Below are positions 16,662 to 46,185 of a DNA stretch of 64,000 bases, in pieces (position 1 is the stretch's first letter; every line of letters begins with the position of its first letter). This DNA comes from Candidatus Enterousia sp. (GTDB lineage: Bacteria; Pseudomonadota; Alphaproteobacteria; Rs-D84), in NCBI GenBank assembly GCA_045637165.1, contig JAZTYU010000009.1, positions 17,456 through 81,455 of the forward strand, written 5' to 3'. The notes beneath the pieces are model-generated. The model was not told the DNA's origin. It ran no database searches and saw only the letters and a program-made list of their open reading frames with translations. A program made the translations under genes and the position numbers.

Positions 16662-16688
16662 AAAAACGCCCAAACGGGCGGTTTTTAT
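16662..16688 (-). terminator. Intrinsic terminator after dnaA
   Basis: cgccc-aaac-gggcg hairpin with a T-run on the minus strand (aaaaacgcccaaacgggcggttttta). Confidence 0.6.
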
Positions 16689-17962
16689 TTACATTCATTT
16701 ACAAACTGTTGTATCTGCGCTGCCAAAACCAAATCATTTGCTTTTTGCTTTTCAATCTGTTTGATTGCATACAAAACTGTTGCATGATCACGACCACCAA
16801 CAAAATTACCAATTTCTGACAAAGACAACTGTGTCGCTTCTTTTAATACAACCATCATAATCTGACGTGCCAAGACCAATGAACGACTGCGACCGGTGCC
16901 ACAAACTGCATCATATGAAACTGCCAATTTTTCACACATATCTTTGACCATTGCTGTTGGTGTTTTTGCAGTCTGCAATGTATCTGCCAACAAACGCTGT
17001 GCAATTTCCATATCAACATTTGCACCCATCAATTCAACATATGCTTTGATTTTTGTTGCAACACCTGCGATTTGATGCCCATCATTTGCAATACGTTTTA
17101 CCAAAACATCTGCAACATCTGATTTTACACCTGCACGTTTCAACATAACTGACTTCACATATGTATTTGGTGCAATGACATCTGCAACCAAACCTGATGC
17201 CAACAACCCCTGGGCATGACGATCAAAACCTGTCAAATTGCTTGGTGCTGCATTTGCAGTGATAACAATATTTTTGCCAGCGTTGCGTAAATCAACAACC
17301 AACTGCAAGAATTCTTCTGTTGATGCTTTCTTGCCACTTAATGCCTGAACATCATCCAAGATAAATGTTTCGCAATTACGGCAGAAATCTTTGAATGCGA
17401 AAACATTGTGTTCTTTCAGACTGCGTGTGAATTCAGAAACAAACTGTGCACCACTCATCTTTACAACTTTTGAATTTGATGCACCACAAATGCATTCTGC
17501 CAACAAAGATTTACCACAACCTGCCGCACCATAGATAAACAATGGTGAAAACGCAACCACACCTGCTGCAACTTTCTTGCATGCAGAAACAACAAACATA
17601 TTTTCATCTGATGTAACAAAAGCATCAAAAGCAACGTTTGTAGCAACTGGTGTTGCGACTGGTGCGAATGCCTGTGCCTTGTTGTCATTTGCAACTGATG
17701 TTGCGGCAACCTTGGCATTACGAACAACAACTTTTACACCCAAACCAAAAGATGCAGCAACATCTGATAAAACACCTGCATGAACACTGTTGATAAAATC
17801 CGCTGAAAACTGATTTTGTGCACCTAATACCAAAACACCATCTACAACATCAAAAGACAAAGGTGCAATCCAAGAAGTAAATGTAGCAGAATCGACTTTT
17901 GCAGCAATGGCCCCTTTGATTGTTTCCAGGTTTGTCATTTTAATTTTTACTGCTGTCTGCAT
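16685..17962 (-). CDS. dnaA: Chromosomal replication initiator DnaA
   Basis: AAA+ Walker A (GAAGCGKSLL), sensor motifs, C-terminal DNA-binding domain IV (GGRDHATVLYAIKQIEK). The ORF track starts at a TTG at 18028; the ATG at 17962 (MQTAVKIKM) is likelier. Confidence 0.9.
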   Translation of the reverse strand: MQTAVKIKMTNLETIKGAIAAKVDSATFTSWIAPLSFDVVDGVLVLGAQNQFSADFINSVHAGVLSDVAASFGLGVKVVVRNAKVAATSVANDNKAQAFAPVATPVATNVAFDAFVTSDENMFVVSACKKVAAGVVAFSPLFIYGAAGCGKSLLAECICGASNSKVVKMSGAQFVSEFTRSLKEHNVFAFKDFCRNCETFILDDVQALSGKKASTEEFLQLVVDLRNAGKNIVITANAAPSNLTGFDRHAQGLLASGLVADVIAPNTYVKSVMLKRAGVKSDVADVLVKRIANDGHQIAGVATKIKAYVELMGANVDMEIAQRLLADTLQTAKTPTAMVKDMCEKLAVSYDAVCGTGRSRSLVLARQIMMVVLKEATQLSLSEIGNFVGGRDHATVLYAIKQIEKQKANDLVLAAQIQQFVNECK

Positions 17963-18413: not shown

Positions 18414-19436
18414 TCAGTTTCGAACATAGCCGCCGTCAACTTTTCGCACTAAACCCTGCAATTCCAAGACAACTAATTCACTTTTAATTTCCGAAACAGA
18501 TTTTTTGACAACACCTGTCAATACAGATTCTGACACAGGAACAGTTCCTATTGCGTCAATTAGATTAAATTCCGCATCAGATTTTTTTGATATTTTTTTC
18601 TCATTTGAATTTTTTTCATCCATCGCAAAGAAATCATCTGGCCCCATACACAGTTTTGCATCACCATTCCGAATCAGTGTGTTTGGCCCCAACGCCCGGG
18701 AATCTGCGGGATGCGATGGGATTGCCCACACATCACGCCCATATTCAATTGCGAATCGTGCCGTTGTCATTGAACCCGATTTCAGGTCCGCCTCGCCCAG
18801 AATCAGGCGATTTGCCAATCCTGCAACGATTCGGTTTCGCTGAACAAAATTAGTTGCAACCGGCACATACCCAACAGGCATTTCGCTGACAATGGCCCCC
18901 CGCTCTAATATTTCATAATACAAACGTTCGTTTTCCAGTGGCCAAATATAATCTACCCCACCAGCCAGAACCGCAATCGTTTGGGAGTCCCCACTCGCAC
19001 GCAATGCCCCACGATGTGCAGCCGTATCTGTTCCAATTGCCATACCAGATATAACTGCCACATTATTTTCTGCAAATCGTTGTGCAATATCGGCGACCAA
19101 TTCCATACCTGCGGCTGTTGCGTGCCTTGTTCCAACAATAGCGACCGCATTTTTCTTCAAGACATCTAAATTTCCACGCACCGAAATAACAGGCGAATGA
19201 TTTTTTACTGCCTTCAAAACCACGGGATAACGTTCATCTTCATCATCTATATAATATATATGTTGTTTTTGTGCGGCCTCTATCTCGCTCAGGACCGAAT
19301 CGCAAAATGCCACATCTGAATTTAATGATTGTGCAGCCGCCACCACAGAACCGAATCGTTCAACCAACGCCCGATACTTTACAGGTCCAATACCTGGCGT
19401 TCTCAAAATCAATAACTTATTATATATATCTGACAT
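18414..19436 (-). CDS. dprA: DNA processing protein DprA (Smf)
   Basis: N-terminal SAM-like (LRTPGIGPVKYRALVERFGS) and Rossmann core (AIVGTRHATAAGMELVADIAQ...VISGMAIGTDTAAHRGAL). Confidence 0.85.
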   Translation of the reverse strand: MSDIYNKLLILRTPGIGPVKYRALVERFGSVVAAAQSLNSDVAFCDSVLSEIEAAQKQHIYYIDDEDERYPVVLKAVKNHSPVISVRGNLDVLKKNAVAIVGTRHATAAGMELVADIAQRFAENNVAVISGMAIGTDTAAHRGALRASGDSQTIAVLAGGVDYIWPLENERLYYEILERGAIVSEMPVGYVPVATNFVQRNRIVAGLANRLILGEADLKSGSMTTARFAIEYGRDVWAIPSHPADSRALGPNTLIRNGDAKLCMGPDDFFAMDEKNSNEKKISKKSDAEFNLIDAIGTVPVSESVLTGVVKKSVSEIKSELVVLELQGLVRKVDGGYVRN

Positions 19437-23358: not shown

Positions 23359-24987
23359 TTAGTTCAGTGGTGCACCCCAGTGCTGTTGTATCCCACGCTC
23401 TACATCCATTGGGCTAACCAAAACCTGTGGTGTCAAGATAACCACCAAGACCTCACGAGTTGCCGATGTTTCACGAGAACCAGACAACGCCATAAAGTCA
23501 GGGTCCCCCAAACCATAACGTGTATCTTCATTGGTCTGCTTTTCAAACCCTGAAACAACTAACATCTGGCCAGATTCCATAATCACTTCCTGCATAAAGC
23601 TACGTTCTTCGACTTCTGGCAATTGCAAGGTCACCTCACCAATTGTCTGGGTTGACATACGCAACAATTCACGAACAGACATACGGAACAACAACAAGAT
23701 TCGACCATTTTCTAATACATTTGGCAAAAGCTGCATTGTAAATCCTGTTTCCAAATCATCTTGGTCAACAGTGCTAGATTCGACTGTTGTAAAGTTTCTA
23801 GATTCGAAACGTTTGATATAACCAGTTGTTCTAGTATTGCTGACTGGTGCAACACGATTTGAACGTGTTGTGACACCAACATTTGTGACCAAAGAAACCT
23901 TACCCTGCTTTGCCAACGCCTGAATCAAAGCATTACTACCAGCCGCCCCTGACAAGGAACCATTCATAATCTGGTCGTTAGTATATGCCCCTTCAACGGT
24001 TGAAGAACCTTCCTGATGTGTTGCACCAGTCAATGCAGAAACTGTATTTGACAGAACTGCAATATTCATCGAACTAGCCTCAGTCGATGCCAAATTATTT
24101 TTTGGATTTGCAACAATATTCAACCCAGAAGCAGAATTTATTGCTGCTGCCAAGTTCAAACCAAATGCAGAATCATTTGAAATCGTAACCTGTAATACCT
24201 TTACATCGATTGTAATCAACTGACTTAGACGTTTGTTTTGACGTTCGATATATTCACCAACACGTGCTAAAATAGATGGTGATGCCGTCACTGTGATTGT
24301 TCCCAAACTGCGCGAAACTGTAAAGTCTGCATTTGAAGCCTTACCAATAATTGAAGAAATCGCACTTTCAACTTCATCCCACTCTTTCAACGTAGATTCC
24401 AAAGACACTTCATTAGAATTATCTGTCGAAACAGATGTCTGATATGCAACTTCTGTTCCTAATGCGTATAATGTAAATGTTTTCGTTTCTGTTTCATAGA
24501 ACACAATAGAATTTTTATCGTAATACCATAACAAATCCAAGTCTGTCGCGACCTGGCTCAACAAGCCTGACAATTTACCAGTATAAGCAATATTTACCTG
24601 TTTCTTTAATTTTTCTGCTGAAACCTGACCATCGATTTTTACCGGAATCCCCGTAATTGAATAAATATCATTTGCCAAAACCTGCAACGACACTGGTTCA
24701 TCTAACAAGATTGTCACACCTGTATCTGTTTCAAACTTTGACGGCAAATTATTGCGATGTTCCAATACCATTGATTTACTGCCCAACCAAACACCCTCGG
24801 ACATAGAAACAGTATCACCAGTAGCCACCTTTGCCCTTGGATTTTTCGCCATTTCAAATGCATCGTATGCATTGATAAAATCCTGGTCCACAGATGCCGC
24901 AACCTTGGCAGACTCTTTTCTGGCACACCCCGTAATTGTTGCAAGAACTAAACTGCCCAAAATCAAAAGTTTAAATGGAATTTTCAT
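23359..24987 (-). CDS. Lipoprotein secretin of the PilN/TcpC/BfpB (type IVb pilus) family
   Basis: Lipobox LATITGC; 542 aa; C-terminal secretin domain (GQMLVVSGFEKQTNEDTRYGLGDPDFMALSGSRETSATREVLVVILTPQVL). Confidence 0.65.
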   Translation of the reverse strand: MKIPFKLLILGSLVLATITGCARKESAKVAASVDQDFINAYDAFEMAKNPRAKVATGDTVSMSEGVWLGSKSMVLEHRNNLPSKFETDTGVTILLDEPVSLQVLANDIYSITGIPVKIDGQVSAEKLKKQVNIAYTGKLSGLLSQVATDLDLLWYYDKNSIVFYETETKTFTLYALGTEVAYQTSVSTDNSNEVSLESTLKEWDEVESAISSIIGKASNADFTVSRSLGTITVTASPSILARVGEYIERQNKRLSQLITIDVKVLQVTISNDSAFGLNLAAAINSASGLNIVANPKNNLASTEASSMNIAVLSNTVSALTGATHQEGSSTVEGAYTNDQIMNGSLSGAAGSNALIQALAKQGKVSLVTNVGVTTRSNRVAPVSNTRTTGYIKRFESRNFTTVESSTVDQDDLETGFTMQLLPNVLENGRILLLFRMSVRELLRMSTQTIGEVTLQLPEVEERSFMQEVIMESGQMLVVSGFEKQTNEDTRYGLGDPDFMALSGSRETSATREVLVVILTPQVLVSPMDVERGIQQHWGAPLN

Positions 24988-25022
24988 AATTATTTTCTCC
25001 TACGACATCTTGTTCCAGATAA

Positions 25023-25970
25023 TTATTCTTCTGTGGTTGAAATCACCAACACTCTATTACCCTTATAGAATTTTGCGTATGGCACAGGCGTTGCACGTCC
25101 AAAATTACGAACCAACGCAGACGCAACATCAACAAAACGCCCCTTAAATACCGCACTTGCCTCTATTGGATATTCACGTGATGTTGTCCAAACCAAATCC
25201 CAACCTTCTTTATCACACCACGACTGCAAGACTTCACGCAATGTCTGACCATTTGCAACAACCCATGAACGAACTTGGTCCGTCATGACTGCTGGTGCCT
25301 CTGCATCTGCGGATGTATCAACAGCAATTTCTGTTTCTTCTTCGATAACAACTGTGCCATCACCCGACGTGTTTGAAATACGCATACCGTCAGCCGTCAC
25401 CCCCTCTACCTTCATACCATTACGAACCGCAAAGGCCTCATATCCATCTGCATACTTTCCACAGGTTTTACGACTGCTGCGCGAAACCGCCAAAACATTA
25501 CCACCATCATCTTCCAAGACTTCACGATGCAACAATGGCATTTCCGAAGAACCATCACATTCATCAGCAAACCCAACAGGGATTTGATTTCCATGCAGCA
25601 TATTTGCCCCACCAGACCAACCAGCAAATTCACCACGTGCCCCCAGATTAAAATTATTTTCAACAACCAAATCCGCCCCAACTTTGGACACAATACGAAT
25701 ATTATCCTGCTGTTTTGTTTTGGAACACAACGCCCCCTCGCATACAACCTCTACGTCTGCATCAGACCCTGCCAATGGCCACGCTGGCACTTCACGTGCG
25801 ACCTGAACATTTTCCTCTACATCAACCTGGGTTGTATCAACCTGTCCATCAACAATTCTATCCTGTTCATAAAACACCTGGGACGTAACAACCTGGGGCA
25901 ACGAACCTGCTGCAAAGCAATATCCAGCAGCAGTTGCAAACATTGCGACAATCAAAATTTTGCGGAACAT
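25023..25970 (-). CDS. TcpQ/PilL-domain periplasmic protein (partner of TcpC/PilN-type secretins)
   Basis: Signal peptide. C-terminal ~90 aa (GQTLREVLQSWCDKEGWDLVWTTSREYPIEASAVFKGRFVDVASALV) resembles the TcpQ C-terminal domain. It sits 35 nt upstream of the secretin gene. Confidence 0.5.
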   Translation of the reverse strand: MFRKILIVAMFATAAGYCFAAGSLPQVVTSQVFYEQDRIVDGQVDTTQVDVEENVQVAREVPAWPLAGSDADVEVVCEGALCSKTKQQDNIRIVSKVGADLVVENNFNLGARGEFAGWSGGANMLHGNQIPVGFADECDGSSEMPLLHREVLEDDGGNVLAVSRSSRKTCGKYADGYEAFAVRNGMKVEGVTADGMRISNTSGDGTVVIEEETEIAVDTSADAEAPAVMTDQVRSWVVANGQTLREVLQSWCDKEGWDLVWTTSREYPIEASAVFKGRFVDVASALVRNFGRATPVPYAKFYKGNRVLVISTTEE

Positions 25971-30820: not shown

Positions 30821-31255
30821 TATCATTGCAATTGCATTTTCCAATATCACACGTGCGGATTCTGAATCTAATTTTTTCTTTATATCGCTAACCCTAACAC
30901 GTCCCATTTCTTCCTGGGCCGCTTGGGAAGTTAAATTTTCTTCGATAAAGATAATTGGTTGTGAAATAACTTTTTCTAATTCTGCCACAAAGCCCCTTAC
31001 CAACTGCGATGTTTCAGATTCTGTCCCATCAGACCGAACTGGCAGTCCAACAACAACAGCATTGACATTTTCTTGATAAATTACTGCCCCTACCAATCGT
31101 GCTGCATCTGCCCCTTTTGGCACAACAATCGCATCACGAACAAAGACAAATTCCCTGTCCAAACTACTGACTGCGACCCCTATTCGTCGCAATCCCCAAT
31201 CAATCCCCAAAATACGTCCCGACGGCGGAAAAGCCTTGAAATCTGGCAAAATCAT
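30809..31255 (-). CDS. ruvX: Putative pre-16S rRNA nuclease / Holliday-junction resolvase-like YqgF (RuvX)
   Basis: RILGIDWGLRRIGVAVSS...VVGLPVRSDGTESETSQLVRGFVAEL is the RuvX/YqgF RNase H-like fold. Start is ambiguous (ATG at 31255 or at 31300). Confidence 0.75.
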   Translation of the reverse strand: MILPDFKAFPPSGRILGIDWGLRRIGVAVSSLDREFVFVRDAIVVPKGADAARLVGAVIYQENVNAVVVGLPVRSDGTESETSQLVRGFVAELEKVISQPIIFIEENLTSQAAQEEMGRVRVSDIKKKLDSESARVILENAIAMINRA

Positions 31256-31293
31256 TGTATAATTCCTTTTACTTTGTAAATATAGGATTGAAA

Positions 31294-31590
31294 ATGGCAT
31301 TTAGCAAGCAACAATTACAAAAATTCGCCGATTTGATAAAGATTGAAATCTCGGCCGAAAAACTGGAACAAATGAACATTGATTCTGTTGTTGAATGGCT
31401 GGACAAATTACAACAGATTGACACAACTGGCGTTCAACCAATGTTAAACCCAGCAGAACATAAATTACCCCAACGTAATGATATTGTTACCGACGGCAAC
31501 ATCCGTGATTTGGTCTTGGCCAACACACCTGATAATGCTGGCACATCACGTGGTTATTTTGCAGTGCCCAAGGTTATGGATGGTGAATAA
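31294..31590 (+). CDS. gatC: Glu-tRNA(Gln)/Asp-tRNA(Asn) amidotransferase subunit C
   Basis: ~98 aa: MAFSKQQLQKFADLIKIEISAEKLEQM...GVQPMLNPAE...RNDIV is a GatC pattern. Confidence 0.8.
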   Translation: MAFSKQQLQKFADLIKIEISAEKLEQMNIDSVVEWLDKLQQIDTTGVQPMLNPAEHKLPQRNDIVTDGNIRDLVLANTPDNAGTSRGYFAVPKVMDGE

Positions 31591-31591
31591 A

Positions 31592-32023
31592 ATGTCAAAC
31601 TCAGAAAAAAACATTCCTGTAGATTTTGTTCAATATGAACAGTATGAACACTTCCCGAATCACATTGCGTCATTGGGTTGCATCACACGCAGCGAACTTG
31701 ACGCTTTGATGGAAAAATTATCTACACGAAACGTTGCCCCCAACGCCTGTATAAAGACACTAAATTTGGAATACAACGAACACACAGGATTTGGCCGTGT
31801 TTTTGGTAGCAATGAACGTCGTCGTTCACTGTCCATTGACGGATTGTTTTATTTTGACCAATACCCACAATGCGGCAAAAAAAATTGCAACCTGGGCGAG
31901 GCAGACAAAATAAAACGCTGTGCCCGCAACTTAAAGAACGGCAAATGCTGTGACGAATTTATCCGCAACACATTGGGTGCAATCTTATACCCACACCACT
32001 ACGCAATGGAAAAACAAAAATAA
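31592..32023 (+). CDS. Hypothetical Cys-rich protein (143 aa) inserted between gatC and gatA
   Basis: ATG 1 nt after the gatC stop; 7 Cys including QCGKKNC and KRCARNLKNGKCC; no recognisable domain. Confidence 0.5.
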   Translation: MSNSEKNIPVDFVQYEQYEHFPNHIASLGCITRSELDALMEKLSTRNVAPNACIKTLNLEYNEHTGFGRVFGSNERRRSLSIDGLFYFDQYPQCGKKNCNLGEADKIKRCARNLKNGKCCDEFIRNTLGAILYPHHYAMEKQK

Positions 32024-32036
32024 TACAGGCACAACA

Positions 32037-32621
32037 ATGAAACCCAATAAAAAACATTTAAGAAACTTTGACAACCTATCAAACCAGATAATAGTCGCTT
32101 CTGTAAATTACGATTTTCAGGCTGACAAACTTGCACAAAGACACAATATAAACTTTAATGCAGAAGACTTACTAGACCGCCCAGAATATTATGAATATCT
32201 GGAAGATTTGGGACAGTTTTTGGCAGAATACGAAATAAAACAATCTATCTTGAACGCCAAACGCGTTGCCGAATTACTAATCGGATACAACATTGCACAT
32301 CGTGGTAAAAAACTGCACCCATCTGCAATAACCAAGAAATTAAACAAACTGCCCGAAGCATACGCCGAAACAATTTATCACGCAATAAATGACGACCATT
32401 TTAATTCCCCTGTATTAACGGCCCAACCATATTTACATTCTATATTGCAAAAAAAATACGGGGTCTTATTATTGGATGAAAAATACTTTGAATACCTGTA
32501 TGCGCTATTGAACAATCCACGTATACAACCGTCACAAAAACAACGCGAAAAAATTTTCGCAAACTTAAAATTGTTTCACAGCGCAACCGTCAAATCCTAT
32601 TTGAACAACAAACAAAAATAA
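32037..32621 (+). CDS. Hypothetical protein (194 aa) inserted between gatC and gatA
   Basis: ATG 13 nt after the previous stop; acidic/aromatic-rich (YEYLEDLGQFLAEYEIKQ); ends 12 nt before gatA. Confidence 0.5.
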   Translation: MKPNKKHLRNFDNLSNQIIVASVNYDFQADKLAQRHNINFNAEDLLDRPEYYEYLEDLGQFLAEYEIKQSILNAKRVAELLIGYNIAHRGKKLHPSAITKKLNKLPEAYAETIYHAINDDHFNSPVLTAQPYLHSILQKKYGVLLLDEKYFEYLYALLNNPRIQPSQKQREKIFANLKLFHSATVKSYLNNKQK

Positions 32622-32633
32622 AAGAAGAAAAAG

Positions 32634-34100
32634 ATGATTAACCTGACACTATGCGAAGCATTACAGAAACTAAACAACGGTGAGATTTCCGCTGTCGAAT
32701 TGACACGCTGCTATCTGGACCGAATTGAAAAATATGGTGCTGATTTGAATTGTTATATCACAACAACACCTGAACGTGCGATGGCCGATGCGGCTGCATC
32801 TGATGCACGTCGTGCTGCTGGCGACGCAAAATTCTTGGACGGTGCACCAATCGCAATGAAGGATTTATTTGCAACACGTTCCATTCGCACAACTGCGGCA
32901 TCACGTATGCTGGAAAAATTTGTCCCAGAATACGAATCAACCGTATCACAAAACTTGATTGATGCCGGCACAGTCCTGCTGGGCAAGGCAAACCTTGACG
33001 AATTTGCAATGGGCACTTTCAGCAAGACCAGCTATTTTGGTGCACCAATCAACCCATGGCAGCTGGACAAGCAATTGACCGCTGGCGGTTCTTCTGGTGG
33101 TTCTACATCTGCTGTGGCTGGCGGTCTTGCAATTGCTGCAACTGGCACAGACACAGGTGGTTCAATTCGTTTCCCTGCTGCAATCACTGGTATGGTTGGA
33201 ATGAAACCTACATACGGCCTATGTTCACGTTGGGGCTGCGTTGCATTTGCGTCCAGCCTGGACACCCCAGGTCCAATCACACGCACAGTTGATGATGCTG
33301 CATTATTATTATCTGCAATGGCCAGCCACGATGTCAAAGATTCAACCAGTGCAACAAATGGTTTTGATTGCAAAACACCACTAGAACCAATCTTGGGCGA
33401 TGGCAAGAAATTACGCATTGGCATTATCCGTGAATTTAATGACGTTAAAATTTCTGACGACATGAAGAATCTGTTTGAAAAACGAATCGCAGATTTAAAA
33501 TCACTTGGTGCAGAAATTATTGAAATATCGATTCCAAATATTCTGGACGCATTAGCGGCATACTACATCATCGCCCCGGCCGAGGCATCGTCAAACCTGG
33601 CCCGTTATGACGGTATGCGTTATGGCCTGCGTGTCGAAGGCTCTGACATCTATGACACCTTCAAGAAATCACGTGCCGCAGGCTTTGGCGACGAAGTTCA
33701 ACGCCGTATGATTATCGGCACCGCTGTTTTATCCAGCGAATCCTATGACGTTTACTTTATGCAGGCTGCACGTGTTCGTCGCAAAATCGCAGACAGCTTT
33801 AATGCGGCATTTGAACAGTGCGATTTGATCGTATGCCCTTCCAGTGCTGGCACAGCAATGCCACTAAGTTCTGACCTGTCACCATTGGAATACTATGCAT
33901 TGGATTTATTTACAGTTGCAATGAATCTGGCTGGCGTTCCTGCATGCAGTGTTCCATGTGGTCTGGCAACAAACGGTCTGCCTTTGGGCGTCCAGGTTGT
34001 TGGCCGTCGTTTTGACGACAAACGTGTTTTACAGTTGGCAAAACACATTGAAACAGCCGCTGGCATTGACAACCGCCCAACAACAATTATGGGAAAATAA
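32634..34100 (+). CDS. gatA: Glu-tRNA(Gln) amidotransferase subunit A
   Basis: Amidase-signature enzyme (GGSSGGSTSAVAGG, catalytic KDLF...S-cisS-K context), 488 aa. Confidence 0.92.
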   Translation: MINLTLCEALQKLNNGEISAVELTRCYLDRIEKYGADLNCYITTTPERAMADAAASDARRAAGDAKFLDGAPIAMKDLFATRSIRTTAASRMLEKFVPEYESTVSQNLIDAGTVLLGKANLDEFAMGTFSKTSYFGAPINPWQLDKQLTAGGSSGGSTSAVAGGLAIAATGTDTGGSIRFPAAITGMVGMKPTYGLCSRWGCVAFASSLDTPGPITRTVDDAALLLSAMASHDVKDSTSATNGFDCKTPLEPILGDGKKLRIGIIREFNDVKISDDMKNLFEKRIADLKSLGAEIIEISIPNILDALAAYYIIAPAEASSNLARYDGMRYGLRVEGSDIYDTFKKSRAAGFGDEVQRRMIIGTAVLSSESYDVYFMQAARVRRKIADSFNAAFEQCDLIVCPSSAGTAMPLSSDLSPLEYYALDLFTVAMNLAGVPACSVPCGLATNGLPLGVQVVGRRFDDKRVLQLAKHIETAAGIDNRPTTIMGK

Positions 34101-34166
34101 AAATGAAATTACCGTCCACTTCTTTTGACAATAAAAAAACGACCACAAAGGTCGCTATAAAAGAAG

Positions 34167-34242
34167 TGGTGGCTAGGGACGGAATCGAACCGCCGACACA
34201 GGGATTTTCAGTCCCTTGCTCTACCAACTGAGCTACCTAGCC
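34167..34242 (-). tRNA. tRNA-Phe (anticodon GAA), CCA encoded
   Basis: Reverse complement GGCTAGGTAGCTCAGTTGGTAGAGCAAGGGACTGAAAATCCCTGTGTCGGCGGTTCGATTCCGTCCCTAGCCACCA is a 76-nt cloverleaf with anticodon loop CTGAAAA. It lies antisense between gatA and gatB. Confidence 0.9.
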
Positions 34243-34298: not shown

Positions 34299-35819
34299 AT
34301 GTTTACAATAAAAGGCAAAACAGGCGATTGGGAATTAGTAATTGGTCTGGAAACACACATCGAAGTGCTGTCCGAATCGAAATTATTCAGTGGTGCATCT
34401 GCGGATTACAACCCCACAGTTTCCCCCAACACCCAGGTTTCAATGGTTGACGTTGCGATGCCTGGTATGTTGCCAGTTCTGAACAAATATTGCGTTGACC
34501 AGGCCATAAAAATGGGGCTGGGACTGAACGCTGAAATTTCACGCCACAGTCGTTTTGCCCGTAAACAATATTTTTACCCTGACCTGCCCCAAGGTTATCA
34601 GATTTCACAACCTGCTGACGAACCACCTGTTGTTGGTCGTGGCTGGGTTGAAATTATGGGTGATGACGGCAACCCAAAGAAAATTTTAATTGAACGTGCC
34701 CACCTGGAACAAGACGCCGGAAAATTGAAACACGACGTTCACCCAACAAAATCCTTTGCAGACTATAACCGCACTGGGGTTGCCTTGCTAGAAATCGTTA
34801 CTTTCTTGGACACAAAAAATCCAGAAAACAATTCTTATATAAGTTCCCCTGACGAAGCAGAACGCTATCTGCGTGAAATTCGTGAAATTGCACGTGCCCT
34901 GGGCGTATCTAAGGCCAACATGGAAGAAGGCTCTATGCGTGCGGACGTAAATGTTTCTGTTCGTCCAGTAGGTTCAAACGAATTCCGCACCCGCACAGAA
35001 ACAAAAAATATGGTTTCATTTAAGTTCATCAAAACAGCCATTGAATACGAAGCACGTCGCCAAATAGCGGCTTATGAAAACGGTGACACAGTTTCCCAGG
35101 ACACCATGCGTTTCCACCAGGACGACGGCACAACATCTGTAATGCGCAGCAAAGAAGACGCACTAGATTACCGTTATTTCCCAGACCCAGACCTGTTGCC
35201 TGTGGAAATCACCGACGAACAAATCGAACGCATACGTTCAACAATGCCAGAATTACCATCTGCGACCCGTGCCCGCTATACGGCAGATTTCGGGCTGTCT
35301 GAATATGATGCAGCAAGACTTACCGAAACAGTTGACATTTCACACTGGTATGACGCCGCTGTCCATGGAAAAAAACAAAACGCAAAATCGATTGCCAACT
35401 GGATGATAAGCGAACTGTTTGCCCACCCTGAAAATTGGGACGTAAAAAATCAGAAATCAGGTATTATTGATGAAATGCGTATAATCACCCCATCTGATTT
35501 ATCAGAATTGGTTGATATGATTAGCGAAAACACAATCAACGGCAAACAGGCCAAAGAAATCTTTATCAAAATGTTGGACGGCGAAAATGGCACACCACGT
35601 GAAATTGCCGACAAATTTGGAATGAAACAAATGACCGACACCGGTGCAATTGAAACGATTGTTGACGAAGTCATTGCTGCAAATCCATCCCAGGTTGAAC
35701 AATACAAATCTGGCAAGGTTGGTCTGCTTGGTTTCTTTGTTGGTAATGTTATGAAGAAAACAGGCGGCACCGCAAATCCAGCTGTTGTGAACGAAATCTT
35801 ACGTAAAAAATTAGCATAA
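34299..35819 (+). CDS. gatB: Glu-tRNA(Gln)/Asp-tRNA(Asn) amidotransferase subunit B
   Basis: 506 aa. N-terminal WELVIGLETHIEVL resembles the GatB N-terminus; C-terminal YqeY-like helical domain. Confidence 0.92.
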   Translation: MFTIKGKTGDWELVIGLETHIEVLSESKLFSGASADYNPTVSPNTQVSMVDVAMPGMLPVLNKYCVDQAIKMGLGLNAEISRHSRFARKQYFYPDLPQGYQISQPADEPPVVGRGWVEIMGDDGNPKKILIERAHLEQDAGKLKHDVHPTKSFADYNRTGVALLEIVTFLDTKNPENNSYISSPDEAERYLREIREIARALGVSKANMEEGSMRADVNVSVRPVGSNEFRTRTETKNMVSFKFIKTAIEYEARRQIAAYENGDTVSQDTMRFHQDDGTTSVMRSKEDALDYRYFPDPDLLPVEITDEQIERIRSTMPELPSATRARYTADFGLSEYDAARLTETVDISHWYDAAVHGKKQNAKSIANWMISELFAHPENWDVKNQKSGIIDEMRIITPSDLSELVDMISENTINGKQAKEIFIKMLDGENGTPREIADKFGMKQMTDTGAIETIVDEVIAANPSQVEQYKSGKVGLLGFFVGNVMKKTGGTANPAVVNEILRKKLA

Positions 35820-35838: not shown

Positions 35839-36087
35839 ATGACCAAGGTTATCAAAATCATTGAAAACAACTGCATCACAGGCGTTCAATACGGACTGGT
35901 TGATGTCCAAGACACACCATTACCAAACACAGCCAAAGCGACAGAAAACAAAAAAAACATAACCGCCAATGCACAACCTGCACCACACCATGCACCTATT
36001 ATTAAACAGCCAGGCCGTGCATGGCAAACTAAAATGTCTGCGGCAAAAAAACGCATACAAGACGCAACCAGAACAAAACAGAAATAA
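35839..36087 (+). CDS. Hypothetical small basic protein (82 aa)
   Basis: ORF with SD AAGGAAAA upstream and Lys-rich tail (AAKKRIQDATRTKQK); no homology recognised. Confidence 0.3.
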   Translation: MTKVIKIIENNCITGVQYGLVDVQDTPLPNTAKATENKKNITANAQPAPHHAPIIKQPGRAWQTKMSAAKKRIQDATRTKQK

Positions 36088-36091
36088 ATTC

Positions 36092-36265
36092 ATGCCATAC
36101 GACAATATTATTTCAGCCCTACAAAAACTGGCTGCTCACGAATCACAAAGCAAAATTCTTGCAAAATCGGAAAAATATCAACGGCAATATGCCTTGCGGG
36201 CTTTTAACACTAAACAAAAGCAAATAAATAAAAAAATTATCAACACACGAACCAAGAACAAATAA
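36092..36265 (+). CDS. Hypothetical small Lys-rich protein (57 aa)
   Basis: ATG 5 nt after the previous stop: MPYDNIISALQKLAAHESQSKILAKSEKYQRQYALRAFNTKQKQINKKIINTRTKNK; ends 7 nt before miaB. Confidence 0.3.
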   Translation: MPYDNIISALQKLAAHESQSKILAKSEKYQRQYALRAFNTKQKQINKKIINTRTKNK

Positions 36266-36272
36266 GAAACAA

Positions 36273-37571
36273 ATGAAAAAATTCTTTATCCAAACTTTTG
36301 GCTGTCAAATGAACGTCTATGACGGATGGCGTATCGCCGCAATGCTGACGCATCATGGTCTGACCCAAACCGACAACATTCCCGACGCAGATATAATTAT
36401 ATTAAACACATGCGCTGTTCGTGCCAAGGCAACGGATAAAGTTTTTTCGGCCCTGGGCCGTATCAGACGTGCGAAAAAGCCCACTGCCCTGTTCGGCATT
36501 GTTGGCTGTGTTGCACGTGAAGCGGGCAGTGATGCATTTCGTCGCATTCCTGATTTGAATTTTGTCCTTGGCCCACAAAGTTATCATAAATTGCCACAAA
36601 TTCTGGAAAATCCGGACGCACGTCTGTTAAATATCGATTTGGGAGGTTTGGAAAAATTTGATTCCCTGCCCCAGATGGAACGCAGTCCACGTGTTGCCTA
36701 TATTCCAATCCAAGAAGGTTGTAATCACTGTTGCACATATTGCATTGTTCCATACACACGTGGTCGTGAAATATCCCGTTCATTCGAATCGGTTATTGCC
36801 GAAACATTACACGCATCTAAAACGGGTGCGATTGAAATTTGTTTCCTGGGTCAGAACGTAAATGGATATAAATACACCGACCAAAACGGCAAAACATATC
36901 GCCTGTCTGATTTGATTCGTGAAACAGCAAAAATGCCAGAAATCCAGCGTATACGTTTCACTTCCAGTTATCCAACAGAAATGACAGACGACCTGATTGA
37001 AATGTTCAAAACAGAACCAAAATTATTACCATTTTTGAACATGCCAATCCAAAGTGGTTCACAAAACGTTCTATCACGAATGAACCGTCCATACAGTCTA
37101 GAATTATACTGCGACATTATAAACAAATTAAAATTGGCCCGTCCTGACATTCAAATCTCATCCGACTTTATTGTTGGTTTTCCTGGTGAAACTGATGACG
37201 ATTTTGAACAGACAATGAAGATTGCTGAGCAAATAAAATACATCAATTCATATTCCTTTAAATATTCACCACGTCCACACACAGCAGCGGCACTAATGCC
37301 GGACCAAATCCCAGAACCAATCAAGGCGGCACGCCTGGCACGCCTGGACACATATCTAAACGAAGTTCAACGTGAATTTAACGAAAGTTGCATTGACAAA
37401 ACACTGCGATGCTTACTAGAAGGACCTGACAAAACAGGTAAACATTTGGTATATCGCACACCTTTTATGCAACAGTGCATTGTTCCATATGTTGATAACG
37501 CCCCAGAACTTGCCAACATTACAATTACATCTGCGAACAAGGCATCATTGCGTGGTAAATTTTCGGATTAA
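36273..37571 (+). CDS. miaB: tRNA-2-methylthio-N6-dimethylallyladenosine synthase MiaB (radical SAM methylthiotransferase)
   Basis: MTTase N-terminus (FGCQMNVYDG), radical SAM CNHCCTYC (CxxxCxxC), C-terminal TRAM domain; 432 aa. Confidence 0.85.
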   Translation: MKKFFIQTFGCQMNVYDGWRIAAMLTHHGLTQTDNIPDADIIILNTCAVRAKATDKVFSALGRIRRAKKPTALFGIVGCVAREAGSDAFRRIPDLNFVLGPQSYHKLPQILENPDARLLNIDLGGLEKFDSLPQMERSPRVAYIPIQEGCNHCCTYCIVPYTRGREISRSFESVIAETLHASKTGAIEICFLGQNVNGYKYTDQNGKTYRLSDLIRETAKMPEIQRIRFTSSYPTEMTDDLIEMFKTEPKLLPFLNMPIQSGSQNVLSRMNRPYSLELYCDIINKLKLARPDIQISSDFIVGFPGETDDDFEQTMKIAEQIKYINSYSFKYSPRPHTAAALMPDQIPEPIKAARLARLDTYLNEVQREFNESCIDKTLRCLLEGPDKTGKHLVYRTPFMQQCIVPYVDNAPELANITITSANKASLRGKFSD

Positions 37572-45193: not shown

Positions 45194-45898
45194 CTACTTT
45201 CGCATAAACAAAATGCTAACCTCAAACAGCAACCACATTGGCACCGCCAGCACAACCTGGGACACTATATCAGGTGGTGTTAAAATTGCTGCCACAATCA
45301 CAATAAATATAATTGCATAGCGTCGCATTTTCAGAACCTGCGTGCGTTGCAAAATCCCAACCCTATTTAACAAAACCATTACCAACGGCAACTGAAACGC
45401 CACACCAAAAACCTTTAACAACCCGATTGCAAAAGTTAAATAATCCCGTGCAGCCGGCAACAAAACACTTGGCACAGATGCTGTCTGGTTTAATTCTACA
45501 AAGAACTTAAATACAATCGGGAACAAGAAATAAAAGGCAAACGCCGCCCCTGCACAAAATAAAATTGGCGACATCACTAACACAGGCCAAATAAACCTTC
45601 TTTCATTTTCCTTTAATCCTGGTGCAACAAACGCCCACAGATGCCACAGCCCCACCGGCAAAATAACAACCAACGCAAACATTGCCGCCAACGAAAACTG
45701 AATCATCAAACCATCTGACAGCCCAACATATAACAATGCCCCATCAGGCCAAACATTTAATAAAGGCTGTGTTAAAAAACTTTGAATAACGGGGGCTATC
45801 CATAACCCTGCCCCAAACGCCAAAACAAAAATCAACGCACACCACAAAATTCTGCGACGCAGTTCAGAAAAATGCTGCAACAAAGTCATTTTTTTCAT
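45194..45898 (-). CDS. tatC: Sec-independent protein translocase TatC
   Basis: 6-TM protein with LTLLQHFSELRRRILW N-terminus typical of TatC. Confidence 0.85.
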   Translation of the reverse strand: MKKMTLLQHFSELRRRILWCALIFVLAFGAGLWIAPVIQSFLTQPLLNVWPDGALLYVGLSDGLMIQFSLAAMFALVVILPVGLWHLWAFVAPGLKENERRFIWPVLVMSPILFCAGAAFAFYFLFPIVFKFFVELNQTASVPSVLLPAARDYLTFAIGLLKVFGVAFQLPLVMVLLNRVGILQRTQVLKMRRYAIIFIVIVAAILTPPDIVSQVVLAVPMWLLFEVSILFMRK

Positions 45899-46185
45899 TT
45901 TTGCTTTGCCTTTTTCTTTACTGTTTTTTTAGGTTTTGGCAATACCGATGAAAAACTGTCAATTACATCATCAGCAGTATTTTTCAGCAAATCATCAATA
46001 GGTTTTTCCAGTTCAATTTGTTGTTTAATATTTTCGGATGCATCTGTAATTTTCCAAACCATCTGACGCACAAATTTGACACATCGTGCCAAAAAACGTG
46101 CAACATCAGGCCACAACCGTGCAGGTACAACCAACACGGCCACCAATAAAATCACAAAAAATTCAGCCCAACTAATACCAAACAT
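45895..46185 (-). CDS. tatB: Sec-independent translocase TatB (TatA/B family)
   Basis: MFGISWAEFFVILLVAVLVVPARLWP resembles the TatB N-terminus (MFDIGFSELLLV...GPQRLP); overlaps the tatC start. Confidence 0.6.
   Translation of the reverse strand: MFGISWAEFFVILLVAVLVVPARLWPDVARFLARCVKFVRQMVWKITDASENIKQQIELEKPIDDLLKNTADDVIDSFSSVLPKPKKTVKKKAKQK

What the first reader, a model, noticed from the sequence alone, without database searches (positions are those of the whole stretch)
31592..32621. Two unknown genes wedged inside the gatC-gatA junction, and gatB separated from gatA by an antisense tRNA-Phe
gatC and gatA are normally adjacent or overlapping. Here a 143-aa Cys-rich protein (QCGKKNC...KRCARNLKNGKCC) and a 194-aa acidic/aromatic protein are inserted with 1-13 nt spacers, so they are almost certainly co-transcribed with the amidotransferase genes. 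tRNA-Phe(GAA) sits on the opposite strand between gatA and gatB. The insert could be a toxin/antitoxin-like or effector pair hitch-hiking on an essential operon, or lineage-specific accessory subunits of the transamidosome.
Basis: partly seen in the sequence, partly recalled or inferred. Interest (0 to 1): 0.55.

Follow-up and report, generated by a model that had tools for sequence, protein, structure and literature searches.

The report
Variable gene slot inside gatCAB operon
In the small-genome gut bacterium Candidatus Enterousia, the essential gatC-gatA-gatB operon always carries one to five extra, fast-changing genes of unknown function between gatC and gatA, and the two flagged genes are real occupants of that exchangeable slot, not a toxin-antitoxin pair.

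Summary
gatC (31294-31590), a 143-aa Cys-rich ORF1 (31592-32023), a 194-aa ORF2 (32037-32621) and gatA (32634-34100) lie head to tail with 1, 13 and 12 nt spacers. tRNA-Phe(GAA) lies antisense between gatA and gatB.

The window is from Candidatus Enterousia (Alphaproteobacteria, order Rs-D84, genomes below about 1 Mb). ORF1 belongs to an undescribed family (185 clusters at 50% identity) with a confident predicted fold, no match in any library searched, four conserved Cys and a conserved C-terminal module ending in KQK. A member lies between gatC and gatA in 48 of 48 loci, in 1-3 copies. It is under purifying selection but far more diverged than GatA.

ORF2 is an unrelated, optional cassette. 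It is 91-96% identical in DNA between species whose flanking gat genes are 79-84% identical (dS 0.06-0.27 against about 1.0). The exchanged block ends in the ORF1 3' module and the gatA 5' end. Other genomes hold RNA polymerase alpha-CTD-like and other cassettes. Two carry gatA5'::gatC3' junction scars.

This is a recombination-driven accessory-gene slot expressed from an essential operon. It is not a toxin-antitoxin pair, and the two genes are probably not core GatCAB subunits. Their biochemical function remains unknown.

The parts
31236..31263 (+). Sigma-70-type promoter-like site (TTGAAA, 16 nt, TATAAT; 11 of 12 matches) upstream of gatC. Probable promoter for gatC, ORF1, ORF2 and gatA.
   Evidence: It is a consensus match only. 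The same promoter region lies directly upstream of gatC in L057.
31294..31590 (+). gatC (98 aa). Its conserved 3' end ATGGATGGTGAATAA carries an SD-like GGTGA for whatever gene follows.
   Evidence: Pfam GatC E 5e-11. 84-98% identical across the GTDB loci. The 3' end is conserved in all loci.
31592..32023 (+). ORF1: 143 aa, soluble, pI 8.5, 7 Cys. It belongs to an undescribed family with a variable alpha/beta N-terminal domain and a conserved C-terminal module.
   Evidence: family. (AF2 pLDDT 83, pTM 0.78). (no structural or sequence match). (a member between gatC and gatA in 48 of 48 loci). (purifying selection).
31871..32023 (+). Conserved C-terminal module of ORF1 (residues about 94-143: C94, C110, G117-K-C119-x-D-E-F-I-R-N-T-L-G-x-x-L-Y-P-x-H-Y-x-x-x-K-Q-K). 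It is also found fused to unrelated N-termini elsewhere. Its last ~30 nt form the left end of the exchanged ORF2 block.
   Evidence: conserved columns. (fusions). (identity profile).
31993..32650 (+). Block recently exchanged between species. It contains the ORF2 cassette and is 93-100% identical in most 60-nt windows to L033, L034 and L042, against about 75-85% in the flanks.
   Evidence: sliding identity. (ORF2 dS 0.06-0.27 against about 1.0 for gatC, gatA and gatB in the same genome pairs).
32037..32621 (+). ORF2: 194 aa, helical, pI 9.2, no Cys. Invariant motif IGYNIA[HR]RGKxLH. An optional cassette.
   Evidence: family. (AF2 pLDDT 64; N-terminal coiled-coil hairpin). (no match). (close ORF2 in only 7 of 48 loci). 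(diverged paralogues in L057, L058 and L060).
32634..34100 (+). gatA (488 aa). Its first ~17 nt belong to the exchanged block.
   Evidence: Pfam Amidase E 6e-133..
34138..34156 (-). Terminator-like hairpin and T-run downstream of tRNA-Phe on the minus strand.
34167..34242 (-). tRNA-Phe(GAA), antisense between gatA and gatB. Conserved at this position in all 20 related loci scanned.
   Evidence: (20 of 20 loci).
34299..35819 (+). gatB (506 aa).
   Evidence: Pfam GatB_N E 1e-101 and GatB_Yqey E 3e-44.
35839..36087 (+). Small basic protein (82 aa, pI 10.1, tail ..TRTKQK). One of two genus-wide families of small ORFs between gatB and miaB.
   Evidence: fam2, 28 copies. No Pfam, PHROG or PADLOC hit.
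36092..36265 (+). Small basic protein (57 aa, pI 10.3, tail ..TRTKNK). The second family of small ORFs between gatB and miaB.
   Evidence: fam1, 31 copies..
36273..37571 (+). miaB-like radical SAM methylthiotransferase. It is the downstream conserved gene next to the small ORFs that follow gatB.
   Evidence: Precomputed Pfam UPF0004 plus Radical_SAM on the orthologues. tblastn synteny.

Best explanation
ORF1 and ORF2 are expressed, selected protein genes that occupy a genus-wide accessory-gene slot inside the gatCAB operon of Candidatus Enterousia.

**Shown**
- The slot always holds at least one member of the ORF1 family. These are soluble, basic, ~140-aa proteins with four conserved Cys, a variable N-terminal domain and a conserved C-terminal module ending in Y-x(1-4)-K-Q-K.
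- Beyond that, the slot holds a variable set of other cassettes: the ORF2 family, RNA polymerase alpha-CTD-like proteins, and a 92-126-aa family.
- ORF2 in this window has been exchanged between species recently as a discrete block. Its ends lie in the conserved ORF1 3' module and the gatA 5' end.
- Two genomes carry gatA5'::gatC3' head-to-tail junctions at 3-5-nt microhomologies.

**Inferred**
- Cassettes are transcribed from the gatC promoter and translated by coupling, given the 1-16-nt spacers and ATGA overlaps with gatA.
- Cassettes enter and leave by homologous recombination that uses the highly conserved gat genes and the ORF1 module as arms. They may also enter by tandem duplication, or by single-crossover integration of circularised gatC3'-cassette-gatA5' fragments. 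Natural transformation is the likely route, because dprA and a secretin/TcpQ pair are in the window.

**Guessed (about 0.3)**
- The proteins are cytoplasmic metal-binding accessory factors involved in strain-specific conflict or partner interaction, or in regulation of nucleic-acid machinery.
- They are kept in many deeply diverged allele classes. They benefit from the constitutive expression and the recombination-friendly flanks of an essential operon, and do not act as parts of the amidotransferase.
For: **Gene reality and novelty**
- Homologues and family size.
- Purifying selection: ORF1 dN/dS is 0.13-0.18 against L006 and L007, and omega is 0.1-0.3 for both halves within allele groups.
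- Structure: AF2 pLDDT 83, pTM 0.78, with no Foldseek hit in PDB or BFVD.
- Libraries: no Pfam, NCBIfam, PHROG, PADLOC or PDB-sequence hit. Nothing in phage, plasmid or IMG/VR collections.

**The slot**
- An ORF1-family member lies between gatC and gatA in 48 of 48 loci: 37 with one copy, 9 with two, 2 with three.
- Up to five cassettes occur in L058, and fused copies occur in L055.
- Alpha-CTD cassettes are confirmed by Pfam RNA_pol_A_CTD (E 1e-10 and 1e-8; precomputed on L061).

**Divergence**
- ORF1 identity to the window is 28-91% while GatA is 86-98% in most loci, and the two do not track each other.
- ORF1 dN is 0.3-0.7 against 0.06-0.10 for GatA.
- dS is mosaic within the gene, for example L030 against L034: N-terminal half 0.04, C-terminal half 0.59.

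**Exchange**
- ORF2 dS is 0.06-0.27 and DNA identity 91-96%, against dS of about 1.0 and 79-84% for the flanking gat genes.
- The block boundaries are about 31993 and 32650.
- The closest sampled relative, L006, lacks ORF2.
- Junction scars are present in L008 and L004.

**Expression context**
- A promoter-like site lies upstream of gatC.
- Spacers and ATGA overlaps are tabulated.

**Independence from GatCAB**
- In L057 the cassettes lie upstream of gatC with their own terminator, and the junction copy is a frameshifted 143-nt remnant.
- Family members lie before rho and in another array.

**Localisation**
- There is no hydrophobic segment in 153 of 155 members, and the Cys count shows no even/odd bias (77 even, 78 odd).

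**Organism**
- Enterousia has a reduced genome and is thought to depend on a partner organism (PMC12306168).
Against: - No experimental or expression data exist, so co-transcription and coupling are inferred from spacing and consensus scans only.
- The 100% linkage of the ORF1 family to gatC/gatA, even in the most divergent lineage sampled (L060, GatA 80%), is stronger than expected for a neutral hotspot. It could reflect a functional tie to GatCAB.
- In L057, two family paralogues still lie immediately upstream of gatC, so dispensability is not proven.
- Coarse dN/dS gives no sign of positive selection, so the conflict reading rests on allele diversity and cross-species exchange alone.
- No outgroup outside the Enterousia clade was examined.
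- The proposed recombination routes are deduced from footprints, not observed.
Confidence: 0.6

Rival explanations
1. The ORF1 family is a lineage-specific accessory or regulatory component of the GatCAB amidotransferase or transamidosome. It would be made in step with GatC and GatA by translational coupling. It might sense metal or redox state through its four Cys, or tune Gln/Asn-tRNA formation. ORF2 and the other cassettes would be passengers.
For: - A family member lies between gatC and gatA in 48 of 48 loci, and in further diverged contigs L055, L058, L060 and L061.
- The gene is tightly coupled, starting 1-4 nt after the gatC stop in many loci, and its stop overlaps the gatA ATG in many genomes.
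- It is under purifying selection.
- There is precedent for extra transamidosome factors: Hp0100 (QueH) stimulates H. pylori GatCAB (PMC8406222).
Against: - ORF1 dN is 4-10 times that of GatA, GatB or GatC, and its identity does not track GatA identity. That is hard to reconcile with a stable interface on an 86-98% conserved enzyme.
- Copy number varies from 1 to 4, with fusions.
- Paralogues lie at unrelated loci.
- In L057 the junction copy is a frameshifted remnant, and the intact copies lie upstream of gatC behind their own terminator.
- There is no sequence or fold similarity to GatC or to any solved structure.
Confidence: 0.17
2. ORF1 and ORF2 form a toxin-antitoxin, toxin-immunity or effector-chaperone pair that rides on the essential operon.
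For: - The two small adjacent co-directional genes have a 13-nt spacer.
- Wherever an ORF2-family gene occurs, it directly follows either an ORF1-family gene or another ORF2-family paralogue.
- ORF2 has spread horizontally.
Against: - ORF1 occurs without the close ORF2 cassette in 41 of 48 loci, including the closest sampled relative L006. The adjacency is trivial because an ORF1-family gene is always in the slot.
- Neither protein matches Pfam, NCBIfam or PADLOC toxin, antitoxin or defence models.
- Neither has a promoter of its own above chance level.
- ORF2 paralogues occur as three tandem copies in L058, which is not pair-like.
Confidence: 0.04
3. The proteins are exported effectors. The conserved C-terminal module and the basic K-Q-K tail would be the recognition signal for a secretion system that reads C-terminal signals (type IV or type I like). 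The variable N-terminal domains would be the payloads acting on a host or partner cell.
For: - The architecture is a conserved C-terminus with variable or swapped N-termini, including fusions to unrelated N-terminal domains.
- The tail is basic, and its Lys codon usage equals the genome average, so the constraint looks protein-level.
- The organism has a reduced genome and is thought to depend on a partner (PMC12306168).
- The family is multi-copy and fast-diverging.
Against: - No type I or type IV secretion genes are in the 64-kb window. The only secretion-related genes are a secretin and TcpQ.
- The same tail type occurs on a predicted lipoprotein and on a membrane protein in the L046 array, and on tiny basic proteins after gatB.
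- The Cys count shows no even bias, as disulfide-rich exported proteins would.
- ORF2 paralogues inside the L058 array lack the tail.
Confidence: 0.1
4. The cassettes are small nucleic-acid-binding or transcription- or translation-modulating proteins. These would be Zn-binding modules, basic tails and alpha-CTD-like domains that act as lineage-specific regulators in a genome poor in classical regulators.
For: - All slot proteins tested in the window are basic (pI 8.5-10.3) and soluble.
- Four conserved Cys without a parity bias fit a metal site.
- RNA polymerase alpha-CTD-like helix-hairpin-helix cassettes share the same slot in at least 8 loci.
- Other array families carry CxxCxxxC motifs.
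Against: - No detectable similarity to any DNA- or RNA-binding family except for the alpha-CTD cassettes.
- The ORF2 family is not related to the alpha-CTD cassettes (hhalign probability 0.2%).
- Deep allelic diversity and cross-species sweeps are unusual for housekeeping regulators.
Confidence: 0.15
5. The ORFs are annotation artefacts or decaying pseudogenes in an enlarged intergenic region.
For: - Neither has a known domain.
- ORF2 has a lower G+C (35% against 41% for the window).
Against: - Intact reading frames are kept across dozens of species with dN/dS well below 1.
- The predicted fold of ORF1 is confident.
- Start and stop positions relative to neighbouring genes are conserved.
- A true remnant (L057) looks quite different.
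Confidence: 0.01

Closest known systems
Chromosomal hotspots of accessory genes bounded by conserved core genes and exchanged by homologous recombination after transformation (for example, the pneumococcal capsule locus between dexB and aliA; general knowledge, not tested here)
   Same: - Highly conserved flanking genes.
- Content that differs between close relatives.
- Whole-cassette replacement, with breakpoints in the conserved flanks and a clear dS discrepancy.
- Competence-related genes (dprA, secretin) in the genome.
   Different: - The slot lies inside a single essential, translationally coupled operon, between two subunits of one enzyme.
- Cassettes are single small genes with 1-16-nt spacers.
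- One resident family is never lost.
- gatA5'::gatC3' junction scars point to duplication or circular-fragment integration.
Integron gene-cassette arrays
   Same: - Promoterless single-gene cassettes are stacked in one orientation behind a common promoter.
- Content varies between strains.
- The cassette ends look alike (..AAACAAAAATAA).
   Different: - No integrase was found among the precomputed Pfam annotations of the eight contexts that have them (about 5-6 kb each side).
- Spacers of 1-16 nt leave no room for attC sites.
- The shared end is three codons, and its synonymous sites vary as in the rest of the genome.
- Exchange tracts end in coding homology, not at a core site.
Accessory factors of the indirect tRNA aminoacylation pathway: Hp0100/QueH of the Helicobacter pylori Asn-transamidosome (PMC8406222) and GatF of yeast mitochondrial GatFAB (own knowledge)
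   Same: - A lineage-specific extra protein is associated with GatCAB.
- ORF1 is Cys-rich, and QueH is an Fe-S protein (own knowledge).
- The gene is genetically locked to gatC/gatA across the genus.
   Different: - No sequence or fold similarity.
- ORF1 is hypervariable, multi-copy and also found at other loci.
- No interaction has been tested.
Type II toxin-antitoxin modules
   Same: Two small adjacent co-directional genes, one of them horizontally mobile.
   Different: - The pairing is not conserved.
- No homology to known families.
- No promoter of their own above chance.
- They are embedded in a housekeeping operon.
Arrays of orphan immunity genes (acquired interbacterial defence clusters of gut Bacteroidales; own knowledge)
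   Same: - Arrays of small, diverse, fast-diverging cytoplasmic proteins in gut bacteria.
- Tandem paralogues.
- Recent spread across species boundaries.
   Different: - No mobile-element genes, no cognate toxins and no similarity to known immunity families.
- The members here share a conserved four-Cys C-terminal module.

Membership tests
Type II toxin-antitoxin pair | The two genes co-occur as a conserved adjacent pair | tested here: not met
   An ORF1-family gene is in 48 of 48 loci. The close ORF2 cassette is in 7 of 48. The closest sampled relative, L006, lacks ORF2.
Type II toxin-antitoxin pair | At least one partner belongs to a known toxin or antitoxin superfamily | tested here: not met
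   No Pfam, NCBIfam or PADLOC hit at E up to 1, 10 and 0.1 respectively. No Foldseek hit.
Type II toxin-antitoxin pair | Toxicity of one partner neutralised by the other | not testable with these tools
   Needs expression experiments.
GatCAB subunit or transamidosome accessory factor | Homology to GatC, GatF, QueH/Hp0100 or another known component | tested here: not met
   No family or structure match for ORF1 or ORF2.
GatCAB subunit or transamidosome accessory factor | Strict co-occurrence and co-expression with gatCAB across the lineage | tested here: met
   Met for the ORF1 family only. It is in 48 of 48 loci between gatC and gatA, coupled by 1-16-nt spacers or ATGA overlap. Not met for ORF2.
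GatCAB subunit or transamidosome accessory factor | Evolutionary constraint comparable with, or co-varying with, its partners | tested here: not met
   ORF1 dN is 0.3-0.7 against 0.06-0.10 for GatA. ORF1 identity is 28-83% among genomes whose GatA is about 91% identical.
GatCAB subunit or transamidosome accessory factor | Physical association with GatCAB and an effect on activity | not testable with these tools
Needs multimer modelling and biochemistry.
Integron cassette array | Adjacent tyrosine-recombinase integrase (intI) and attI site | tested here: not met
   Precomputed Pfam annotations exist for eight contexts (L001-L004, L056-L058, L060, L061; about 5-6 kb each side). They show only sufBD, sufC, an AI-2E transporter, ruvX, gatCAB, miaB and similar genes. 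The other loci were mapped only with window proteins.
Integron cassette array | attC recombination site (imperfect inverted repeat of about 60-140 nt) at the 3' end of each cassette | tested here: not met
   Spacers between cassettes are 1-16 nt or overlap. Exchange tracts end inside coding homology.
Core-gene-flanked recombination hotspot (accessory-gene slot) | Conserved flanking core genes with variable content between related genomes | tested here: met
   gatC is 84-98% and gatA 86-98% identical in the GTDB loci (down to about 80% in the most divergent contigs). Between them lie 1-5 cassettes of at least 5 families.
Core-gene-flanked recombination hotspot (accessory-gene slot) | Sequence signature of horizontal exchange of the content relative to the flanks | tested here: met
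   ORF2 dS is 0.06-0.27 against about 1.0 for the flanks. The block boundaries are mapped. dS is mosaic inside ORF1.
Substrates of a secretion system that reads a C-terminal signal | Conserved C-terminal domain or basic tail shared by proteins with different N-termini | tested here: met
   The module lies at the extreme C-terminus in nearly all members and in fusion proteins.
Substrates of a secretion system that reads a C-terminal signal | A cognate secretion machine encoded in the genome | tested here: inconclusive
   None is in the 64-kb window. It holds only a secretin and TcpQ. The rest of the genome was not available.

The most novel reading that the evidence does not exclude
The ORF1 family is a genus-specific fourth component of the GatCAB machinery. 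It would be a metal-binding modulator, made in fixed ratio with GatC and GatA, whose many allele classes set different levels of Gln/Asn-tRNA transamidation or mistranslation. Swapping alleles between species would then tune translational fidelity. The K-Q-K tail, with its Gln codon two codons before the stop next to the gatA start, might be part of that feedback.
Probability: 0.1. Interest if true: 0.8.

Novelty: new variant of a known kind. Interest (0 to 1): 0.45.

Why it matters
gatC, gatA and gatB encode subunits of one essential enzyme, and their genes are normally adjacent. Here a whole genus with genomes below about 1 Mb keeps a dynamic slot of unknown genes between two of those subunits.

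- **Essential operons can host accessory genes.** They can act as expression platforms and recombination anchors for them.
- **A new protein family.** The slot holds a sizeable, completely uncharacterised family with a confident new predicted fold. It is among the few rapidly diversifying gene sets in a partner-dependent gut bacterium, so it is a good candidate for whatever mediates strain-specific interactions.
- **A traceable exchange system.** The junction scars and exchange tracts give a natural system for studying how genes are gained in reduced genomes that carry no recognisable mobile elements.
- **The alternative would also matter.** If the ORF1 family instead modulates GatCAB, it would be a new kind of control on the indirect tRNA aminoacylation pathway.

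Tried and rejected
- **Annotation by sequence.** Pfam, NCBIfam, PHROGs, PADLOC and PDB sequence profiles gave nothing for ORF1, ORF2, the 426-aa gene, the 92-aa family or the small proteins after gatB.
- **Annotation by fold.** Foldseek of the ORF1 model against PDB and BFVD, and of the ORF2 model against PDB, gave no hit with E below 0.2.
- **Mobile-element origin.** There was no tblastn hit in phage or plasmid collections and none in IMG/VR.
- **ORF1 and ORF2 as diverged relatives.** Rejected (hhalign probability 0.1%).
- **ORF2 as a degenerate alpha-CTD or helix-hairpin-helix protein.** I suspected this by eye. Rejected (hhalign probability 0.2%).
- **The KQK tail as a nucleotide-level A-rich leader or recombination core.** Not supported. 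AAA/AAG use in the tail is 80/20 against 79/21 genome-wide, and K-to-R changes are tolerated. The tail may still have been captured by ORF2 when it joined the end of an ORF1-family gene.
- **The tail as a secretion tag.** Weakened, because the same tail type is on a predicted lipoprotein and a membrane protein.
- **Disulfide-rich exported protein.** Not supported by Cys parity.
- **Positive selection.** Coarse pairwise dN/dS gave 0.1-0.3 almost everywhere.
- **Compositional anomaly.** Only modest: ORF2 G+C is 35% against 41%, and GC3 is similar.
- **Hidden RNA element.** Rfam finds only the tRNA.
- **Outgroup synteny.** The GatC protein search listed only hits of 85% identity or more, so it gave no outgroup. 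A broad family alignment was too diverse for the genome scan.
- **The KQK-ending 96-aa ORF at 45895-46185.** It has no Pfam hit. It lies directly upstream of tatC and has an N-terminal hydrophobic helix and a Lys-rich tail, so I read it as a TatA/TatB-like protein that is probably unrelated to the slot.
Full report
**1. The observation**

The ORF table, the raw sequence and Pfam confirm the layout.
- gatC is 31294-31590.
- ORF1 is 31592-32023 (143 aa, 7 Cys).
- ORF2 is 32037-32621 (194 aa).
- gatA is 32634-34100 and gatB is 34299-35819.
- The spacers are 1, 13 and 12 nt.
- ARAGORN and Rfam place tRNA-Phe(GAA) at 34167-34242 on the minus strand.

A terminator-like hairpin follows the tRNA on the minus strand at 34156-34138. 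A strong promoter-like site (TTGAAA-16-TATAAT) lies at 31236-31263, just upstream of gatC. The only plus-strand terminator-like hit before gatA is a weak 5-bp stem inside ORF1. These are consensus scans whose totals do not exceed the shuffle expectation.

One detail of the finding is wrong. ORF2 is basic overall (pI 9.2), with only a local acidic/aromatic patch. Both proteins are hydrophilic and have no signal peptide or membrane segment.

**2. The organism**

A scan of one genome per GTDB species returned 49 loci. Nearly all are labelled Candidatus Enterousia or unclassified gut Alphaproteobacteria from ruminants, horses and other animals. Enterousia belongs to order Rs-D84. Its genomes are about 0.75-1.0 Mb, it lacks most biosynthetic pathways and respiration, and it is thought to depend on partner organisms (PMC12306168). 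The rest of the window is ordinary housekeeping: dnaA, dprA, gyrB-like, dnaJ, uvrC, several aminoacyl-tRNA synthetases, sufB/sufC, tatC, an FtsI-like penicillin-binding protein, and a secretin with TcpQ.

**3. ORF1 belongs to a large undescribed family**

The word-indexed search found 25 homologues at 42-91% identity. An exhaustive profile search of 1.84 billion cluster representatives found 185 clusters with E up to 1e-3, and 79 with E up to 1e-10.

The family alignment shows a variable N-terminal part. The C-terminal module is conserved: C-x15-C-x2-N-L-x2-G-K-C-x-D-E-F-[IM]-R-x-T-[LIV]-G-x2-L-[FY]-P-x-x-Y-x(1-4)-K-Q-K. C53 and C119 are invariant, and C94 and C110 are conserved in at least 90% of sequences.

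AlphaFold2 gives a confident model (pLDDT 83, pTM 0.78): a four-stranded alpha/beta N-terminal domain and three C-terminal helices. It matches nothing:
- Foldseek against PDB and BFVD.
- PDB sequence profiles.
- Pfam, NCBIfam, PHROGs and PADLOC.
- Phage, plasmid and IMG/VR collections.

Cys counts show no even/odd bias (77 even, 78 odd). Hydrophobic segments are absent in 153 of 155 members. I read this as a cytoplasmic protein with a four-Cys metal site. That is an inference.

**4. The family always sits between gatC and gatA**

I mapped the window's proteins onto all loci with tblastn, and searched the interval ORFs with a family HMM.
- At least one family member lies between gatC and gatA in 48 of 48 loci that contain the interval: 37 with one copy, 9 with two, 2 with three.
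- The surrounding order is conserved: sufB-sufC-x-AI-2E transporter-ruvX(-)-gatC-[slot]-gatA-tRNA-Phe(-)-gatB-two small ORFs-miaB.
- More distant family members, looked up individually, are in the same place. L060 (GatA 80%) reads gatC-133-141-188-gatA. L061 reads gatC-133-alpha-CTD-gatA. L055 reads gatC-129-348 (two fused copies)-another copy.
- The antisense tRNA-Phe is present in 20 of 20 loci scanned.

**5. The slot content varies**

Clustering of the interval ORFs gives several families:
- The ORF1 family (61 copies).
- A 91-126-aa family ending ..[IL]xxQR (12 copies).
- ORF2 (7 copies).
- Two groups that Pfam identifies as RNA polymerase alpha-subunit C-terminal domain proteins (E 1e-10 and 1e-8).

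A 426-aa gene is inserted between gatA and tRNA-Phe in some genomes. L058 holds five cassettes between gatC and gatA, three of them tandem ORF2-family paralogues.

Spacers between cassettes are 1-16 nt. In about a dozen genomes the last cassette ends ..AAA CAA AAA TGA, with the gatA ATG inside it, which is the classic ATGA overlap of coupled genes. The inference is that cassettes have no expression signals of their own. They would be read from the gatC promoter by ribosomes passing from gene to gene.

**6. Evolution**

*ORF1.*
- Against the window, GatC, GatA and GatB have dN of about 0.05-0.10 and dS of about 1.0 in most genomes.
- ORF1 has dN of 0.3-0.7. Its identity (28-91%) does not track GatA identity. 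Among genomes with GatA near 91%, ORF1 ranges from 28% to 83%.
- Yet close pairs give dN/dS of 0.13-0.18. Within allele groups both halves of the gene have omega of 0.1-0.3.
- These are therefore selected genes that exist as many old allele classes.
- dS is mosaic within the gene. L030 against L034 gives 0.04 in the N-terminal half and 0.59 in the C-terminal half. L006 against the window gives 0.15 and 0.78. This shows recombination inside the gene.

*ORF2.*
- Its DNA is 91-96% identical (dS 0.06-0.27) between the window and five other species (six loci, two of them near-identical). Their flanking gat genes are 79-84% identical (dS about 1.0).
- A sliding identity profile places the exchanged block from about 31993, the last 30 nt of ORF1, to about 32650, the first 17 nt of gatA.
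- The window's closest sampled relative (L006; gatA dS 0.24) has no ORF2.
- ORF2 is therefore a cassette that has recently crossed species boundaries by recombination in conserved flanks.
- The family itself is older. Copies at 30-42% identity lie in the slot of L058 and L060 and upstream of gatC in L057.

**7. Footprints of how cassettes are added**

- In L008, ORF1 is followed by a copy of the first 105 nt of gatA (99 of 105 identical to the real gatA start). That copy is fused, at the microhomology TATGG, to the last ~16 nt of gatC (ATGGATGGTGAATAAA). An alpha-CTD cassette and the intact gatA follow.
- In L004 the first cassette is followed by the first 17 nt of gatA fused to the gatC 3' end, and then a second ORF1-family cassette.

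A gatA5'::gatC3' head-to-tail junction is what a tandem duplication of the interval would leave. Single-crossover integration of a circularised gatC3'-cassette-gatA5' fragment would leave the same junction. No recombinase gene or repeat site is present. dprA and a secretin/TcpQ pair in the window make uptake of DNA by transformation plausible, but that step is inferred.

**8. Is the family tied to GatCAB?**

*For.* The linkage is universal and the coupling is tight.

*Against.*
- The rate and allele pattern described above.
- Copy number varies and copies fuse.
- Family members and module fusions occur at other places. One site lies between a giant autotransporter-like protein and rho (L052, L056). 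Another is an array of small genes ahead of a 290-aa gene that looks like an enoyl-ACP reductase but was not scanned (L046).
- In L057, two family genes and an ORF2-like gene lie upstream of gatC and end with their own terminator. The gatC-gatA interval there holds only a 143-nt frameshifted remnant. It keeps the 5' end (MSNTDKNIPV..) and the 3' end (..YPQHYGKQK, overlapping the gatA ATG) of a family gene.

I therefore rate a stoichiometric subunit as unlikely and a regulatory link as possible (0.17). The H. pylori precedent, Hp0100/QueH, shows that such accessory factors exist (PMC8406222).

**9. The C-terminal tail**

A tail of the form Y-x(0-4)-[KRN]-[QT]-[KR] ends many proteins: the ORF1 family, ORF2, the 426-aa protein, both small proteins after gatB, and many genes of the other arrays.
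- In the tail, Lys is AAA in about 80% of cases, the same as genome-wide (79%). K-to-R changes are tolerated, so the constraint looks protein-level.
- The same tail type is on a predicted lipoprotein and a membrane protein, which weakens a secretion-signal reading.
- ORF2 paralogues inside the L058 array lack it.
- ORF2's tail and spacer (AAACAAAAATAAAAGAAGAAAAAGATG) match the end of an ORF1-family gene in L002. ORF2 may have captured the tail when it joined the slot.

I leave the tail unexplained.

**10. Verdict**

The pair or toxin-antitoxin idea is not supported. Riding on an essential operon is supported in a more specific form. This is a genus-wide, recombination-fed cassette slot with one permanent resident family and optional guests.

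What the proteins do is unknown. My best guess is strain-specific accessory functions of cytoplasmic metal-binding proteins, in conflict, partner interaction or regulation. I hold that at about 0.3.

The phenomenon is a new variant of a known kind, a hotspot flanked by core genes, and it contains a new protein family. Interest is moderate: unusual for gatCAB and for a reduced genome, but without a demonstrated function.

Noticed in passing
window 35839-36087 and 36092-36265: Two small, very basic ORFs (82 and 57 aa; tails ..TRTKQK and ..TRTKNK) lie between gatB and miaB. Both families recur at this position in most related loci (28 and 31 copies among about 40 loci that include the interval). 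Neither matches any library.
   Followed up: partly
L002 8377-9657; also L019, L033 and L058 8651-9931: A 426-aa gene of unknown function (tail ..GTKQK) is inserted between gatA and the 3' end of the antisense tRNA-Phe in some genomes. It has no Pfam or PADLOC hit, and only a weak PHROG hit (E 0.007).
   Followed up: partly
L008 8445-8560; L004 5957-6001: Partial copies of the gatA 5' end (105 nt and 17 nt) are fused at 3-5-nt microhomologies to the gatC 3' end inside the slot. These are head-to-tail junction scars left when a cassette was added.
   Followed up: yes
L057 5994-6140: A 143-nt frameshifted remnant of an ORF1-family gene lies between gatC and gatA. It keeps only the 5' and 3' ends. 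Intact family copies and an ORF2-like gene lie upstream of gatC, behind a terminator hairpin.
   Followed up: yes
L046 5485-9014; L052 6875-9203: Arrays of small same-strand lineage-specific genes lie at other loci. They include families with a CxxCxxxC motif and tails ..CDHYKTR, a predicted lipoprotein, a membrane protein, and proteins that fuse unrelated N-termini to the ORF1 C-terminal module.
   Followed up: partly
L008, L013, L014, L016, L018, L040, L051 and L061, in the gatC-gatA slot: Free-standing proteins combine an RNA polymerase alpha-subunit C-terminal-domain-like fold with a C-terminal segment that looks like a coiled coil by eye. They occupy the same slot in at least 8 loci. L008 and L013 were confirmed by Pfam here, L061 by its precomputed annotation, and the others by clustering.
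   Followed up: partly
window 34167-34242 (-) with 34382-34411 (-): tRNA-Phe is transcribed against the gatA-gatB direction. The only promoter-like site for it (9 of 12 matches) lies inside the 5' end of gatB. No plus-strand promoter-like site precedes gatB, so gatB would have to be read through the antisense tRNA gene.
   Followed up: no
window 16685-17962 (-), 18414-19436 (-), 23359-25970 (-): dnaA, dprA and a secretin/TcpQ pair lie within 15 kb upstream of the operon. They may bear on the replication origin and on DNA uptake.
   Followed up: no
L039 (contig CAZJGX010000090.1): A 2.9-kb contig binned as an 'uncultured Muribaculaceae' MAG carries the Enterousia-type ruvX-gatC-ORF1-gatA arrangement (GatA 83%). 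It is probably mis-binned.
   Followed up: no
window 9013-9546: A 177-aa protein with no Pfam hit ends in ..AKSQNQK and is followed by a terminator-like hairpin. It may be another lineage-specific protein with the tail motif, one that is not followed by a coupled gene.
   Followed up: no
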